A stretch of 64,000 nt of DNA from the NCBI GenBank assembly GCA_977030845.1, contig OZ365111.1, positions 49,662,001 through 49,726,000 of the forward strand, read 5' to 3'. Shown here one piece after another: positions 42,001 to 48,000 of this stretch (its first letter is position 1; every line of letters begins with the position of its first letter). Origin of the DNA: Fimbriosthenelais zetlandica (taxonomy: Eukaryota). Made by a program: the position numbers.

Positions 42001-45000
42001 AAATTGTGGGCCCAAAATATATTATAATATCCTTGCTGTTTTAATTTTAACATGGAAAAGTTGAGATATTAATTCTGACAAATTCACACAAATATGAGAT
42101 ATTAATTCTGACAAAATATTATATAAAGTGCAACCACCCCCAGGGCATGCCATGGGCAAATTCTGCCTTTCACGTCAGAAACCAGGGGAAATGAGCAATC
42201 TAATATAGGCCTAGGAGCTAAACATAAAGATGTTTCTAATAGCTACAGCAGATAAGCTAACTCGGTCATACGTTCCTGACATTTTGTTTTGGGTGGTTAG
42301 ACAGTGAATCATAGCGTGGTTTGGAGTAATTTATATGTTTTTAGTGACGATTTAGTGTTCAGATTAATTGTTGTATACAGTATAGAGTCTGGGTTCCTGC
42401 CAAGTGACAACACTTTGTCTGGTATTGTTTACTAAAGCACTTCATAGGCTCAAATGTATGAGAGCAACTCTCAAGTCTGACGTGCAGAAACATGTAAGAC
42501 TCAGTTTGAAATTTCTACTGTTTTTCATTGGAGAAATGCACCACAAATATCAGAAAATGTTCAATAAGTTAGTGATACAATATGAGCCCTGGAAAAAGTA
42601 ATGAAAATGACAACAAATCCTAAGAAAAATTATGACTGAAAATTCCAAAGTTATAGGGAAAGAAGGTGCATCGTGCAAAGAATGGGGCGAAAATATCATA
42701 GAAATTTCTCCTAATATAGCCTAGATTTAAAGAAATCATTTTGAGTTGAGCGAATCCATATAGGAATCGGAAATTGGATCGTTTTTTATTACAGGAATAT
42801 CAGGGCATTGGACTTGTATTCTCTTTTCACGGGGCTGGCCCAGAATTAATATGATCCATATAATAGACTATACATGTATTTGTCAACTATTAAATCGGCA
42901 AATATTCTCCCTGTATACAAAAGGAATGATATATATAAAGATGAGAAATGTGCATGTCTATAGTGTGGCAGAGAAAGAAGCCAGCATGGACCCTGGGGGC
43001 CAGCTGATATGTGTCTGAGAAACGTCAACAAGTGAAGAGGGCAGAGAAACAGGAGCCTTAAATGGATCAAGTGTGGACGGGGGGGGGGGGGTTACACTAG
43101 GCAGAGAGAGTTCCTGGATAATCTATACCACTGACAGAATAGTCTTTACATTCACCCTAAAAAGATCATATAAATGCATTTATTTCGCCAACAAGACAAG
43201 TCTAAATAGAGCACACGTCGCTTTTCTAAATCATGCATGGGACCAACGAGAATAGAAAGCTTCTTTCTATACTGATGGAACGTACCTGCTTTGATAGCTG
43301 CCCTTTTACATTGGTTTTTTTCTTATCCCTCCCCCAATGTCCCCATCTGAGATTCCATGACCTAGCAGACAGGTCTGAAGGTCGCACACTGTGACTGAGT
43401 CATCCTCGCCACAGACACTGAGACTGAAACGCTTCTAGCAAAAACTAAAAGGTCAATGTCAGAAATGGTGAAGTTGAAAGAGAACGCCCGGTTTGTGAGA
43501 TGGAAACTTGTAAATTAATAATATCAGGGTACTCTTCATGTATTCCCATTGTGAACATGAAAATGCAGACTTACCAGACTTAGTATAGTTTCTCTAGGTC
43601 CCATGTGGAGGCCTGGTCCGTTAGGTGTTGCCTGACCTAAGGTCTCTTTTGGAATAGTTCTCGGGTTTCCTGGGGGGAGGGGTTGGATTCTTACGACTGA
43701 ATCTGATTGTATGGAATGTCAAATATAACCATAGCGTGGTGACGACCACACTCACTACACAAAGAAGTCGATCCAAGTTATACTAATCTTGCGAAAACAA
43801 TGCATTTAACATAGGTATAAATATGCAGTTTCCCAATTATCGACAGGATTATAAATGTTCCTAATCCAATGTTTGACACAAAAACCTTTTCCAAAACTTT
43901 CAAAAGCTTACAGAAGAATCTTCAACCCATATAGAAGACTACAAACACAGTATACCTGTGGGCTACCCCGGAAAAGCTATATTGCTTTTCCATCTCCAAT
44001 ACTTTTTATAATGACTAACATTGCCATATTCCTGGACTTTCAGTTCTCCTAATTTAAGCGAAGGTAAGCTTATGCCTTGTACTTAATTGGTGTCCCTAAT
44101 TAGAATAATAGCTCCAGTCTCATCCAGTTATCCAAAGTAAGGTATCTACTCCTGGCACATGATCAGTCTTCTTCTCGTCGCTAATTTTCCACTATTTTCT
44201 GCGTGTATAAGCATCACTAGTGATGGGGAGAAGGAGGAGGAGGGGGTAGAGGAGGAGGGAGAAAGTGTCCCGCTGTGGCTAGAATGAGGCCTCAGCCTCT
44301 GACCCGCGGGAGCTACTCTCCCCAAAATCCATTACAAACTACCGTGGTACATAAGGCAGTGCAAGGTACGGTGGACCAAAACCTTGTAGGCTCGAAGCTT
44401 GATATTTGTGACCCATAACAATTTGTTCCATCACTTAGTTCAAAAGGAAAACATTCTAGATTAAATATTTTGACATGAAAAATAATATGTTGAATAAAAA
44501 TATAATGGAAATGTATCTTTTAATCAAAGGGAACACTAGACTTAGCTGCTAATATTTTTATTGTCATTTGATACCAAATCCATTATCAGAAATACAACAG
44601 GTTCTACGTCAGGTCCATTTCACAAACTATTTTTTCAACCAGAGACAGACAGAATCCTCCTTGAATCATGGTACAACATTAACGATCAGGGTCTTGGTCG
44701 TGCTTTGTGTCGGCACCCCTCTGTCCCGACACTGAATTTCTATCTCATATTTGCTCTTTTCGGCGTGTACAAGGGGAGCTGTTGTGCGGAGGTTGTAGGC
44801 ATATTTCATCCCTTTGATTAATACCAACTTGAACCCAGGTTCATTGATCTCACAGATTATTTCACCCTTTAAACCTTGGTCAGGGTCAAAAAGTGACAGA
44901 TGAGCGACCAGTACATCCGAGTTTGGGGTTTCCTTCACCTGAGCGACTGTGTTGAGAGCCAGTAGATTCAAACTGGGAGAATGGTCGTTCACATCCGTTA

Positions 45001-48000
45001 TATTGACCTCGATCAAAGTATCAGACTGCTTTGGGGGGTTTGCTGAATCGTTACACATAATACGGGCGCTCACTGATTTTTCAACTTCATAGTCAAAACT
45101 CTTGGCCGTGAGGATTTCATAGGAAATGAAATTTCCGTCTTGGCCACTTATTTGTTTCAGTTCAAGGTTTGGACTCTGCATAGAGCAGTTGACCTTTCCA
45201 TGGCTGACTTTATCAGTGTCGTAGACAGCAACATGTCCTACCAGAGTATTAGCAGGTTCGTTCTCGCTCACTTCCATCTGACCATTGCTACTTTGGGGGA
45301 AGGTTTGAATTATCGGGACTGCTTCATTTATATCAATGACATCAATGGTAAAGTTCTTTGACAGGCTCAGGGGAGGGTCTCCTTTGTCCGTGCAAATGAA
45401 TTCAACTTCGTATCTACTGCACTCTTCGTAATTCAGCGGTTTTATGGAGGCCAGACTGTAGTAATCAGCACCAACGTATTTCTCAACGGTGAAGTGGTTG
45501 TATGGGTCCTTGGCATGACACTCAATGCGACCAGCAATGCCAGCATCATCATCAGTCACATAGATTCTGACTGCAGTTGATCCGTAGCGAAGCTCCTCCG
45601 TGATATTGAACGGACCTGTCGGGGGCTTAATCTCGACAATCTTGGGTTTGTACTCATTTTCATCCAGGAGGTAGAGTTTAAGGGTTCGTACCGTAGACCG
45701 AGGAGTTTCCCCATGATCAGTGCAATTAATGGGTATTTTGTACATTCGCTGTTCCTCGAGGTCAAATACTTTTGTGGTTACAACCTGGTATTTATTTTGA
45801 CTCAGTTCTTCTAGGGCAAAACCTGTAGTCTTGATACTACAATTGACTTCTGCATTATGTCCTTCATCACGGTCAGCTACTAAAACCTGAGCGATAATTT
45901 GACCAGGTGGTTTATTTTCCACCATTTCAGCCATGTCATGGTACCTGGATGTACTGAGGGTAATTTGAGGGCTGTTATCATTGACATCAGTAACTATAAT
46001 GGTCAGATGGACTTCCCTTATTGGCCTTGAGCGGAGACATGAACTGAAGACCTGGATGGTAGTATTGATCATTGGTGTTACCTCACGATTAATTCCACGT
46101 CTTGTATTCATAACACCAGTCCTTGGGTTAACATAAAAGTATGATCCCAACTGTTTAAATTCGAGCTTTTCATTTTGACATCCAGGAAGACCGGTGTCAT
46201 CTAGTTTCACCATGAAGGTCCCGTGTGGTTGATTCTCTGGTAAGGTGATTGTCTGGTTGACGATCCTCGTGTCAGTACGCCGGTCAGCGGACGACAGATG
46301 GTGGGTGAGGATGAGAAGCCACGTCCAGCTAACAATTGACAGGTGTCTTACTGAAGCCATCTGAAAGACAAATTAGTTATACACCGGTTTGGTGGCTTCT
46401 TTTGACAATAAAGGCAATTACAGATAGCCAAATTGATAGCCCTGCCACCTATAGTGTATGAAGAAAAACCTCCACTCGTAGACATCGCTACTTCCGGTTT
46501 ATGTGTATTGCCATAGGTTTGAAGTGGGGAATACACAAACGGTTCACAGAAAACCTTTTCCAAATTGTGTATAATATGTCCCCTTTCCACTTTTCAGTGG
46601 ATGACAAATGCCTTTTACATTCAGTTCTGCTCACAGTACTTGCATAGAGAAGTCAATTAAATCAGCTATATTATTGATATCACTACACTTGGGTAGGCCT
46701 ACCCTGAGGCCCCATGTACTTTATTACTTTGACTAGTAAGAAACAAGAAGCGGAAATATAGCTGACTATATAGCTGAATGCTTCTGTTGCTTTAAATTGT
46801 ATTATTTTGACCATTGGGTAGCCTAATACACTACAATTAGCCTAGTGTAGCCTACTCTAAATTGCATTCAGAAAATAGTTTACGCTGCAAAAATTAGGAT
46901 AATTATGCCTATTATATCATATTGCTAAAATGATTATATAATTGATTGACAATTCTCAAGATTACCCATATATAGGACATGCTTAATGCATTTCGTCATG
47001 AATCACTAGGCCCTATATATAATAGGCTATGCACGACTATTTATATTTATAATATTGCCATGCAAATTTATTCCTGGCAAAAGTAATGGGTTCTGGAATT
47101 GGATACAATAATATAGCCCTAATTGAATGAGAAATTATGGATACGGTAGCCTACTATTCATTACCTGAGGGGTTGGGGTGGGGTGGGGTGGGTGGGGAGT
47201 AAGATTTCTTTTAGTAGTCCCCTACCAGAAAATATTCACACCGTTGTCAATTTTGAGGAAAGTTCATGTCATAAAAGAACTAACTTCTTTCCTAAATGGC
47301 GATTGAAGAAGGTGCTAGAAGTCTGAATTCAGCGATTTAATATGTTTTAGTTTTGACTTAAAACAGATAGGCTATATAATAGCTGCTAGCTCCTTGAATA
47401 GCATAAATTTCCTAAATATTTCCTAAAGGGCATGAATAAGTTCGGACTTAACACTATAGGATCTCTATGGCCTATAGGCCTATTCATTTTAATACAAAAC
47501 AGTGAAATGAATTTGTGTAAATTTGTTTAAAATGTAGGCCTAATTACGCTATTTAATATGAAAATAAATTGTCACCAGACTCAAACTCAAGAAAGGTATT
47601 ATATTAGGCCTATTCTGAAGGGATAAAACTGGAACTTACTTTAATGTTGCCAGCTTTAGCCTATACCGAGACCTGTATAAGGTTTTTGGTGTCTCATCTA
47701 CGGAAGCCCAATGTGGAGTGCCACATACTGTCCTCTAACATATGACTTTTTATTATGATGTGTAATAAATAATGTCTAGGTCTGGATTGTGGCCCCTGGG
47801 GACGAGGGTGAGATGGGGGTGGGGTGGGGGTTAGCCTTGTATAGACAATATATATCCGGAAACCAGCATATTAAAAATGCACATATTATCATTTATGATA
47901 GTCAATCATCATTCACCATTTCCATGTAAAGTAGGCCTACATTAGTAGGGTAATAGACCTATACAGGCATTGTAACTCTATCTCTAGTCTACTGGAAAAC

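What the first reader, a model, noticed from the sequence alone, without database searches (positions are those of the whole stretch)
44600..46360. Protocadherin-like ectodomain that stops after EC5 with no membrane anchor
Seen: signal peptide plus 5 EC repeats, then ...LIVNVVP-stop exactly where the next DxNDN linker should be. I found no TM-coding sequence after the stop and no convincing downstream TM exon. Several Ca2+ motifs are degenerate (INRE, DENEYKP, DINEAVP, VHAEK in EC5). Established: protocadherins normally have 6-7 EC repeats, a TM helix and a cytoplasmic tail. Inference: either a secreted or decoy cadherin (matrix or adhesive component, or competitor of membrane protocadherins) or a recently truncated gene. 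The 1.7-kb intact frame argues against long decay.
Basis: partly seen in the sequence, partly recalled or inferred. Interest (0 to 1): 0.65.

Follow-up and report, generated by a model that had tools for sequence, protein, structure and literature searches.

The report
Anchorless five-repeat cadherin gene
One large exon encodes a signal peptide and five calcium-binding cadherin repeats and then stops, so the protein is most likely secreted rather than membrane-anchored, which is unusual for this adhesion family but has precedents.

Summary
On the minus strand, 46360-44666 is an intact 564-codon frame: signal peptide, five complete cadherin repeats (Pfam E 3.7e-52, 5 stretches), then TGA two residues after repeat 5. 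No other cadherin-like frame exists in the 64 kb. The mature protein has no hydrophobic segment and no GPI-type tail.

The exon looks terminal. The three GT sites beside the stop score -2.1 to -4.1, against 4.3-11.0 for 11 donors of a neighbouring gene. AATAAA lies 104 nt after the stop. A canonical acceptor directly precedes the ATG, so the gene looks spliced and native.

- A 53-codon TM-like frame with a basic tail lies 0.9 kb downstream on the same strand. It is rare by chance, but its acceptor is no better than 39% of all AGs and it has no usable donor.
- The calcium motifs are only mildly altered, not degenerate.

Repeat 5 is most like repeat 4 of protocadherins. Every repeat carries a cysteine pair.

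Best reading: an anchorless secreted cadherin (about 0.45). Rivals are a young truncated relic, a splice to the TM-like frame, and distant exons. No transcripts or orthologues could be checked.

The parts
46361..46374 (-). 3' splice acceptor (pyrimidine tract plus CAG) directly before the ATG. It implies an upstream non-coding exon that was not located.
   Evidence: Read. It scores 13 on my simple acceptor scale, the 95th percentile of 7678 AGs in the window, against 11-17 for 10 acceptors of the SLC6-like gene.
46286..46360 (-). Start codon and predicted cleavable signal peptide (M1-A25).
   Evidence: basic n-region, hydrophobic core (12-residue KD mean 2.02), small residues at -3 and -1. The cleavage rule is recalled; no predictor was run.
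45962..46273 (-). Cadherin repeat 1 (residues 30-133), Cys61/Cys108.
   Evidence: Pfam Cadherin 30.8 bits (cutoff 28.8). FAT4-like N-terminal model is below its cutoff, and Cadherin_2 was not found even at E<=10. Repeat limits.
45638..45955 (-). Cadherin repeat 2 (residues 136-241), Cys174/Cys213.
45308..45637 (-). Cadherin repeat 3 (residues 242-351), Cys281/Cys323 plus an extra Cys314.
44969..45301 (-). Cadherin repeat 4 (residues 354-464), Cys392/Cys436.
44669..44968 (-). Cadherin repeat 5 (residues 465-564), Cys503/Cys544. It is complete and has no linker motif after it.
   Evidence: Pfam Cadherin 37.2 bits, profile positions 2-92 of 93. Its best solved relatives match through the fourth repeat of protocadherins.
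44666..44668 (-). TGA stop codon.
   Evidence: All three frames after it close within 16 codons and none reads like a cadherin linker.
44557..44562 (-). AATAAA, the first on this strand after the stop (104 nt), followed by a T/GT-rich stretch. Candidate poly(A) signal.
   Evidence: The window holds 132 matches on both strands, about one per 970 nt per strand, so roughly a 1-in-10 chance of one this close.
43621..43782 (-). TM-like frame of 53 codons plus stop: a 21-residue hydrophobic stretch, then a basic, proline-rich 27-residue tail. A candidate anchor exon or relic, NOT shown to belong to the gene.
   Evidence: It is rare by chance, but its acceptor scores 9 (reached by 39% of all AGs), it has no Met, no Pfam family, and no usable donor upstream.

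Best explanation
This is a native, spliced gene whose single coding exon makes an anchorless, secreted protein of five cadherin repeats. The mature protein is about 539 residues, 60 kDa and acidic, with nine N-glycosylation sequons.

Proposed mechanism, mostly inferred:
- A signal peptide sends the protein into the secretory pathway.
- Calcium bound at four largely intact inter-repeat linkers stiffens it into a rod.
- One cysteine pair per repeat probably forms an extra disulfide within each repeat.
- With no membrane anchor, the protein acts outside the cell. It could be a calcium-binding adhesive or matrix component (mucus, shell or extracellular matrix), or a soluble partner or competitor of membrane cadherins.

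Shown: the frame, the repeats, the position of the stop, and the absence of an anchor in the exon. Inferred: transcript end, secretion, disulfides and binding partners.
For: - Intact 564-codon frame with five Pfam cadherin repeats. The repeats are only 19-28% identical to each other, so they are old and maintained, not a fresh internal duplication.
- Ligand columns are conserved: the strand-A Glu in 5 of 5 repeats, the DxD Asp in 4-5 of 5, and the linker D..N..P in 4 of 4.
- Repeat 5 is complete, and the stop follows two residues later.
- No hydrophobic segment in the mature protein (best 19-residue KD 0.85) and no hydrophobic C-terminus (last 15 residues 0.21), so no TM and no GPI-type signal.
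- No second cadherin-like frame among 2880 six-frame ORFs of at least 15 aa. The three other hits have E 1.3-9.1.
- The three GTs next to the stop score -3.4, -4.1 and -2.1. The median of all 6943 GTs is -0.5. Eleven donors of the Pfam-verified SLC6-like gene score 4.3-11.0.
- AATAAA lies 104 nt after the stop. By the listing, four of five other genes in the window have one 150-350 nt after their stops.
- A canonical acceptor directly before the ATG argues for a native spliced gene and against a retrocopy.
- The next genes downstream are two plus-strand genes ending at about 38.4 and 33.7 kb, tail to tail with this one.
- An exon search on the minus strand, 22147-44665, gave 331 candidates, none cadherin-like or TM-plus-basic with good signals.
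- Precedent for extracellular cadherin-repeat proteins in lophotrochozoan secretions: Lingula shell matrix (PMC4595640), chiton shell and spicules (PMC13564323), octopus skin mucus (PMC11431876). All were seen as passages only.
Against: - Expression, the poly(A) site and conservation of the stop are all untested.
- A TM-like frame with a basic tail lies 884 nt downstream on the same strand. Only 6 of 1043 ORFs of at least 33 aa in the window meet its criteria, and 4 of those sit in real-looking membrane genes. Simulated sequence gives one in the first 1.1 kb in 0.6% of runs with strict criteria and 2.6-5.9% with relaxed ones. The thresholds were set after seeing it.
- Repeat 5 resembles the fourth repeat of protocadherins (21 of 32 listed chains), which fits truncation of a longer ancestor.
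- Truncated protocadherin frames are reported as possible pseudogenes in cephalopods (PMC9068888, passages).
- The matrix and mucus proteins in the cited proteomes may be shed ectodomains of anchored cadherins. The chiton paper names one with a TM domain.
- My donor matrix uses recalled frequencies. The calibration donors were picked as the best GT within 8 nt of where the Pfam match ends.
Confidence: 0.45

Rival explanations
1. This is a young truncated relic. A duplication or rearrangement kept the promoter-proximal part of a longer protocadherin-type gene (signal peptide to the fourth-repeat-like domain) and lost the remaining repeats, the TM segment and the tail. The frame is still open only because the event is recent, and the product has no selected function.
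For: - Repeat 5 is most like the fourth repeat of delta and clustered protocadherins (21 of 32 chains).
- Canonical protocadherins have 6-7 repeats (PMC10734073, passages).
- Fragmentary or truncated protocadherin frames are described as possible pseudogenes in squid and octopus clusters (PMC9068888, passages).
- The strand-E acidic motif of repeat 5 has lost its Asp, and no linker follows.
Against: - The frame ends exactly at a repeat border.
- No cadherin-coding remnant follows in any frame anywhere in the 64 kb.
- 42-49 kb is unique sequence with no repeat or transposon edge at the stop.
- All five repeats keep fold, ligand and cysteine-pair columns.
- A canonical acceptor, a signal peptide and a nearby AATAAA are all present.
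- The window holds no other cadherin, so this is not a fragment inside a tandem cluster.
Confidence: 0.2
2. The protein is membrane-anchored, always or as an alternative form. A 5' splice site at or near the end of repeat 5 joins to the TM-like frame at 43782-43624, giving a type I protein with a 27-residue basic tail. If that splice competes with the AATAAA at 44562-44557, one gene would make both a secreted and a membrane form.
For: - The TM-like frame is on the same strand, 884 nt after the stop.
- Such a frame is rare: 6 of 1043 ORFs, and 0.6-5.9% of simulations for the first 1.1 kb.
- It starts right after an AG in phase 0, and the three GTs beside the stop are all phase 0.
- In-frame codon score is 0.05 against -0.31 and -0.40 in the other frames.
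Against: - Those three GTs score -2.1 to -4.1, below the median of all GTs and far below 11 of 11 calibration donors.
- The acceptor scores 9, reached by 39% of 7678 AGs. It has another AG 6 nt upstream that would bring a stop into every frame.
- Any frame that begins after a TAG stop has an 'AG' at its start, so that feature is not informative.
- 21% of 383 background ORFs match its codon score.
- No Pfam family.
- The better donor-like sites inside the exon (best 8.0, at 44939) would delete all or part of repeat 5. About two that strong are expected among its 99 GTs.
- The hydrophobic stretch is only moderate (KD 1.94) and rich in Thr.
Each piece was searched alone.
Confidence: 0.12
3. This is the first coding exon of a longer gene. 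The further repeats, TM segment and tail lie beyond the window's low end, inside the 168-N gap at 25080-25247, or in exons too short or too divergent to detect.
For: - Cephalopod protocadherin genes are described as multi-exonic (PMC6339937 and PMC9068888, passages), and introns can be long.
- The self-built HMM and the hydrophobicity scans have limited sensitivity for short exons.
- The gap was not filled and cannot be examined.
Against: - No usable donor before the stop.
- Such a transcript would have to run 44 kb antisense through two plus-strand genes and a tektin gene, and past a same-strand GPCR gene.
- No cadherin-like frame in 44.6 kb downstream.
- No exon candidate with good signals.
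Confidence: 0.12
4. The stop is an assembly or sequencing error, and the true exon continues.
For: Nothing specific. It cannot be excluded without reads.
Against: - None of the three frames after the stop encodes a linker or a further repeat.
- No cadherin-like frame lies nearby, so one wrong base or a small indel would not restore a longer cadherin.
- The only N run is 19 kb away.
Confidence: 0.04

Closest known systems
Delta and clustered protocadherins (PCDH18, PCDH10, PCDH19, Pcdh alpha/beta/gamma)
   Same: - The repeats align over 3-4 consecutive domains, E 1e-45 to 1e-25.
- The whole ectodomain sits in one large exon.
- There is no Trp2-type N-terminus.
- Repeat 5 shares the G-x-I/V-x-C strand motif of their fourth repeat (alignments).
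   Different: - Five repeats, not 6-7.
- No TM segment or cytoplasmic tail in the exon.
- Pfam Cadherin_2 N-terminal model not detected.
- A second cysteine in every repeat, where these proteins have Ala (alignments).
CELSR/Flamingo N-terminal cadherin repeats
   Same: Best solved relative overall: CELSR1, 8vy2, E 1.9e-50. Repeats 1-4 align in register from the first repeat.
   Different: CELSR has nine repeats followed by EGF/laminin-G modules and a seven-pass receptor. Nothing of that kind lies in the window.
Secreted isoform of protocadherin-15 lacking the TM domain
   Same: It is a cadherin-repeat ectodomain released without an anchor (cited in PMC3679001, passage).
   Different: There it is one alternative product of a gene that also makes anchored forms. 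Here no anchored form is supported, and the gene would be dedicated to the anchorless product.
T-cadherin (CDH13)
   Same: Five repeats and no TM segment (recalled; also described as GPI-anchored in the abstract listed, PMC8063249).
   Different: T-cadherin is held by a GPI anchor and is a classical-type cadherin with a prodomain. This protein has no hydrophobic C-terminal GPI signal and no classical N-terminus.
Cadherin-domain proteins of lophotrochozoan shell matrix and mucus proteomes
   Same: - Cadherin repeats are found in extracellular secretions: Lingula shell matrix, chiton plates and spicules, octopus skin mucus (passages).
- The best Atlas cluster for this protein is mostly molluscan.
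   Different: Those reports give domains, not architectures, in the passages I saw. Some are large Fat4-type or TM-bearing cadherins that may be shed. No sequence comparison with them was possible, and the supplementary tables are closed.

Membership tests
Cadherin superfamily | Two or more consecutive cadherin repeats | tested here: met
   Pfam PF00028, 5 stretches, E 3.7e-52. Repeats 1 and 5 each pass the cutoff on their own.
Cadherin superfamily | Calcium-ligand motifs at the inter-repeat linkers | tested here: met
   Read. The four linkers keep the strand-A Glu, the DxD, the strand-F Asp and the D-x-N of the linker. There are 1-3 substitutions per linker. The motif definitions are recalled, and calcium binding itself was not tested.
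Protocadherin (in the sense of PMC10734073: non-catenin-binding, 6-7 repeats) | 6-7 extracellular repeats | tested here: not met
   Five repeats, and no further cadherin-like frame in 64 kb.
Protocadherin | Single-pass TM segment and cytoplasmic tail | tested here: not met
   There is none in the exon. The only TM-like frame downstream lacks usable splice signals. Distant exons cannot be excluded.
Protocadherin | Protocadherin-type N-terminal repeat (Pfam Cadherin_2) | tested here: not met
   Not listed at E<=0.01 for the whole protein or at E<=10 for repeat 1. The top Atlas cluster does carry it in 95% of members, which is a lead only.
Protocadherin | Ectodomain encoded by one large exon | tested here: met
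   1692 nt of uninterrupted coding sequence from the ATG to repeat 5.
Protocadherin | Absence of catenin-binding motifs in the tail | not testable with these tools
   No cytoplasmic tail is encoded.
Classical cadherin | Prodomain, Trp2 strand-swap N-terminus and catenin-binding tail | tested here: not met
   The mature N-terminus has no Trp near position 2, and there is no tail. The classical features are recalled.
GPI-anchored cadherin (T-cadherin type) | Hydrophobic C-terminal GPI-attachment signal | tested here: not met
   The mean KD of the last 15 residues is 0.21, and the frame ends in a beta-strand-like sequence. No GPI predictor was available.
CELSR/Flamingo | Nine repeats followed by EGF/LamG modules, a GAIN domain and seven TM helices | tested here: not met
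   Only five repeats. The one 7TM frame in the window is an Srw/rhodopsin-type GPCR 22 kb away.

The most novel reading that the evidence does not exclude
One gene makes both a secreted and a membrane form of a cadherin, by the logic of the immunoglobulin mu-secreted/mu-membrane switch (recalled textbook case). A deliberately poor 5' splice site at the very end of the ectodomain exon competes with a poly(A) signal 104 nt downstream. When splicing wins, the exon joins the small TM-plus-basic-tail frame at 43782-43624. Every repeat would also be clamped by its own disulfide, which no cadherin I aligned shows.
Probability: 0.07. Interest if true: 0.6.

Novelty: new variant of a known kind. Interest (0 to 1): 0.33.

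Why it matters
Cadherins are textbook membrane adhesion receptors. A gene dedicated to an anchorless five-repeat cadherin would show the repeat array used as a soluble or matrix calcium-binding module. It would also give a defined gene for the cadherin domains repeatedly seen in shell-matrix and mucus proteomes of molluscs and brachiopods, whose origin (shed or secreted) is unclear.

A cysteine pair in every repeat, if it forms disulfides, would be a simple way to stiffen the fold outside the cell. This is checkable by mass spectrometry.

If the frame is instead a truncated relic, it is ordinary. The case is cheap to settle with one cDNA experiment.

Tried and rejected
- **Homodimer prediction.** Repeats 1-4, two copies, no alignment. 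The verdict was 'no answer', score 0.00. It is not evidence either way.
- **AlphaFold2 on the single sequence**. Mean pLDDT was 32.2 with no residue above 50, so the model is unusable. I ran no fold search and could not check the cysteine pairs in a model.
- **Pfam on whole translated frames** downstream of the stop. The call stopped with an error because the frames contain stop codons. I went ORF by ORF instead.
- **First hydrophobicity scan** (19 residues, KD>=2.0). It missed the TM-like frame. The relaxed scan found it among 20 of 346 minus-strand ORFs.
- **Codon-usage score** trained on 1419 codons of neighbouring genes. It separates the cadherin frame from its two other frames (0.10 against -0.35 and -0.67), but it does not discriminate for the 53-codon frame.
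- **Self-comparison of the window**. There is no repeat or mobile-element edge at the stop, so truncation by an insertion is not supported.
- **Rfam and tRNA scans**. Nothing lies near the gene.
- **GC-AG and U12-type donors** beside the stop, judged by eye. None fits; the consensus sequences are recalled.
- **Read-through of the TGA.** It adds 16 residues with no hydrophobic stretch.
- **Literature searches** for a per-repeat cysteine pair (listing only) and for secreted invertebrate cadherins. They gave no direct precedent in what I saw. The phrase 'secreted cadherin' had 0 occurrences in the 15 papers listed. A search of PMC11844738 for 'secreted' and GPI terms found 0 occurrences.
- **First Atlas call** failed, and I repeated it as told.
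- homologue searches, orthologue loci, and metagenome or viral collections (all closed). The bacterial/archaeal genome collection was not used because it is irrelevant here.

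
Full report
**What is there.**
The finding lies on the minus strand. A stop-to-stop frame of 568 codons runs 46372-44666. It has an ATG at 46360 and a TGA at 44668-44666, giving a 564-residue protein.
- Pfam finds the Cadherin domain in five stretches (E 3.7e-52). There is also a sub-threshold match of repeat 1 to the FAT4-like N-terminal model (32.8 bits, cutoff 35).
- An HMM built from the five repeats places them at residues 30-133, 136-241, 242-351, 354-464 and 465-564.
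- The first 25 residues look like a cleavable signal peptide. The rule is recalled, and no predictor was available.
- Repeat 5 matches Pfam profile positions 2-92 of 93, and the frame ends two residues later.

**Is there an anchor?**
- The mature protein has no hydrophobic segment (best 19-residue Kyte-Doolittle mean 0.85). Its last 15 residues average 0.21, so there is neither a TM helix nor a GPI-type tail.
- After the TGA, all three frames close within 16 codons, and none reads like a cadherin linker.
- The repeat HMM, run against all 2880 six-frame ORFs of at least 15 residues, found only the exon itself. The three other hits had E 1.3-9.1.

This is therefore not a longer single exon broken by one nonsense or frameshift change. 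The window's only N run is at 25080-25247 and was left alone.

**Does the exon splice onward?**
I scored every GT with a donor matrix that uses recalled metazoan frequencies.
- The three GTs next to the stop (44684, 44678, 44675, all phase 0) score -3.4, -4.1 and -2.1. The median of all 6943 GTs in the window is -0.5.
- For calibration I used the SLC6-type transporter gene on the plus strand. Eleven of its ORFs match consecutive parts of the Pfam SNF profile.
- Its 11 inferred donors score 4.3-11.0. Each was picked as the best GT within 8 nt of the end of the Pfam match, which biases the scores upward.
- Its 10 acceptors score 11-17 on a simple pyrimidine-tract scale.
- Stronger donor-like sites exist inside the cadherin exon (best 8.0, at 44939). 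Using them would delete part or all of repeat 5, and about two that strong are expected among its 99 GTs.
- AATAAA lies 104 nt after the stop and is followed by a T/GT-rich stretch. With about one AATAAA per 970 nt per strand, this is mild support. By the same listing, four of five other genes in the window have one 150-350 nt after their stops.

**A missed candidate anchor.**
A relaxed scan of 346 minus-strand ORFs between 22147 and 44665 flagged one frame at 43782-43624. It has a 21-residue hydrophobic stretch (KD 1.94) followed by four Lys/Arg within the next twelve residues, and a 27-residue proline-rich tail.
- Only 6 of 1043 ORFs of at least 33 residues in the whole window meet those criteria. 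Four of the six lie in real-looking membrane-protein genes.
- In 1000 second-order Markov simulations of the 5.5 kb downstream, such a frame appeared in the first 1.1 kb in 0.6% of runs with strict criteria and 2.6-5.9% with relaxed ones. The thresholds were chosen after seeing it.

The frame is therefore unlikely to be pure chance. Its splice signals are poor, though.
- Its acceptor scores 9, a value reached by 39% of 7678 AGs.
- A nearer upstream AG would bring a stop into every frame.
- The 'AG' at its start is simply the end of the preceding TAG stop.
- It has no Met, no Pfam family and an uninformative codon score.
- An exon search with calibrated thresholds gave 331 candidates between 22147 and 44665. 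None was cadherin-like or TM-plus-basic with good signals.

Each was searched alone. What a joined model might have shown stays open.

**Signs of a real, native gene.**
- A canonical acceptor (pyrimidine tract plus CAG, score 13, the 95th percentile) ends exactly one base before the ATG. That implies an upstream non-coding exon and argues against a retrocopy.
- 42-49 kb is unique in the window, with no repeat edge at the stop.
- The five repeats are only 19-28% identical to one another. They still share the strand-A Glu (5 of 5), the DxD Asp (4-5 of 5), the strand-F Asp (4 of 5) and the linker D..N..P (4 of 4).
- By my reading against recalled motif definitions, each of the four linkers has 1-3 substitutions, mostly Asp to Asn or Glu.
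- Repeat 5 has lost the Asp of its strand-E acidic motif and has no linker after it, as expected of a last repeat.
- The mature protein is acidic (pI 5.1) with nine N-X-S/T sequons.

**A cysteine pair in every repeat.**
Ten of the eleven cysteines form one pair per repeat. One cysteine sits in the strand where protocadherins have Tyr (or Cys, in their fourth repeat). The other sits where they have the Ala of the A-x-D-G motif (alignments).
- From recalled cadherin structures, these two positions are neighbours on adjacent strands, so an intradomain disulfide is plausible.
- I could not test it, because the single-sequence AlphaFold model was unusable (mean pLDDT 32.2).
- One literature search gave no precedent in its listing.

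**Relatives.**
- Among solved structures, the best matches are CELSR1 (E 1.9e-50, repeats 1-4 in register), followed by clustered and delta protocadherins.
- Repeat 5 alone matches 32 chains. In 21 of them the match falls at chain residues of about 322-445. By position this is the fourth repeat of constructs starting at repeat 1, which is my inference since the table does not name repeats.
- The nearest Atlas cluster is a mostly molluscan set of cadherin fragments (score 0.95).
- The neighbours are an SLC6-type transporter, an Srw/rhodopsin-type GPCR and a tektin. They fit an invertebrate genome, and I do not take the contig for human.

**Comparison with what is known.**
[quoted passage not shown] This protein fails the repeat count, the anchor and the Cadherin_2 model, so it resembles that family but is not shown to be a member.
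- Anchorless cadherin products are known as an alternative isoform of protocadherin-15 (cited in PMC3679001, passage).
- T-cadherin has five repeats but is held by a GPI anchor.
- Cadherin domains are among the most abundant in Lingula shell-matrix proteins (PMC4595640, passage). They recur in chiton shell and spicule proteomes (PMC13564323, passages), and Fat4-type protocadherins occur in octopus skin mucus (PMC11431876, passages).
- An oyster study lists short 'protocadherin Fat 4-like' models, predicted as non-membrane, among its calcium-binding adhesive candidates (PMC6337334, passages).
- The passages I saw do not say whether these are shed or secreted. The supplementary tables that might say so are closed.
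- Truncated protocadherin frames in cephalopod clusters are read as possible pseudogenes (PMC9068888, passages).

**Verdict.**
My estimates for each reading are:

| Reading | Probability |
|---|---|
| Dedicated gene for an anchorless, secreted, calcium-stiffened five-repeat cadherin | about 0.45 |
| Young truncated relic | 0.20 |
| Anchoring through the TM-like frame, constitutive or as a switch against the nearby poly(A) signal | 0.12 |
| Longer gene with distant or hidden exons | 0.12 |
| Assembly error | 0.04 |

One cDNA experiment would settle the matter. Interest is modest: this is an unusual variant of a very well known family, with one curious detail (the cysteine pairs) and one loose end (the downstream TM-like frame).

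Noticed in passing
window 8465-16876 (+): A multi-exon SLC6-type sodium:neurotransmitter symporter gene. Eleven ORFs match consecutive parts of the Pfam SNF profile (positions 1-523 of 524). All its inferred introns have GT-AG ends with CAG-type acceptors.
   Followed up: partly
window 20809-22146 (-): A single-exon 445-codon frame matching Pfam 7TM_GPCR_Srw (E 4.7e-16) and 7tm_1. It is an invertebrate-style peptide/chemoreceptor-type GPCR.
   Followed up: no
window 25963-27492 (+): A complete tektin (Pfam E 9.6e-142) in one uninterrupted 509-codon frame. The 2-kb block holding it has 50% G+C against 35-43% around it, so it may be a retrogene. A 168-N gap lies just upstream at 25080-25247.
   Followed up: no
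window 28893-34418 and 34580-39138 (+): A tandem duplication of about 5 kb (82-97% identity in blocks). Each copy ends in a terminal exon (33118-33486 and 37877-38275) that encodes a TM helix and a Lys/Glu-rich tail, with paired AATAAA 150-165 nt after the stop. There is no Pfam family. These genes converge tail to tail on the cadherin gene.
   Followed up: partly
window 12311-12497, 32405-32622, 37284-37582, 52945-53627, 55331-55584: A dispersed satellite of about 43-44 bp per unit in short tandem arrays. It translates as a repeated 14-residue peptide in long spurious ORFs.
   Followed up: no
window 17432-17502 (-): A tRNA-like Rfam hit (32.7 bits, gathering score 29) that ARAGORN does not call. 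It sits beside a 170-bp direct repeat and proline-rich ORFs, and may be a tRNA-derived SINE.
   Followed up: no
window 50573-50707 (+): The only other orphan ORF that passes the TM-plus-basic-tail filter (KD 2.19). It has no known gene context.
   Followed up: no
window 43570-43575 (-): A perfect consensus donor (CTG|GTAAGT) lies 46 nt after the stop of the TM-like frame, but in another frame. That frame is open for 60 codons (43718-43536) and proline-rich. It was not explained.
   Followed up: partly
window 48381-48421: A 41-bp near-perfect palindrome (95% over 42 aligned positions). It is the only self-match within 42-49 kb.
   Followed up: no
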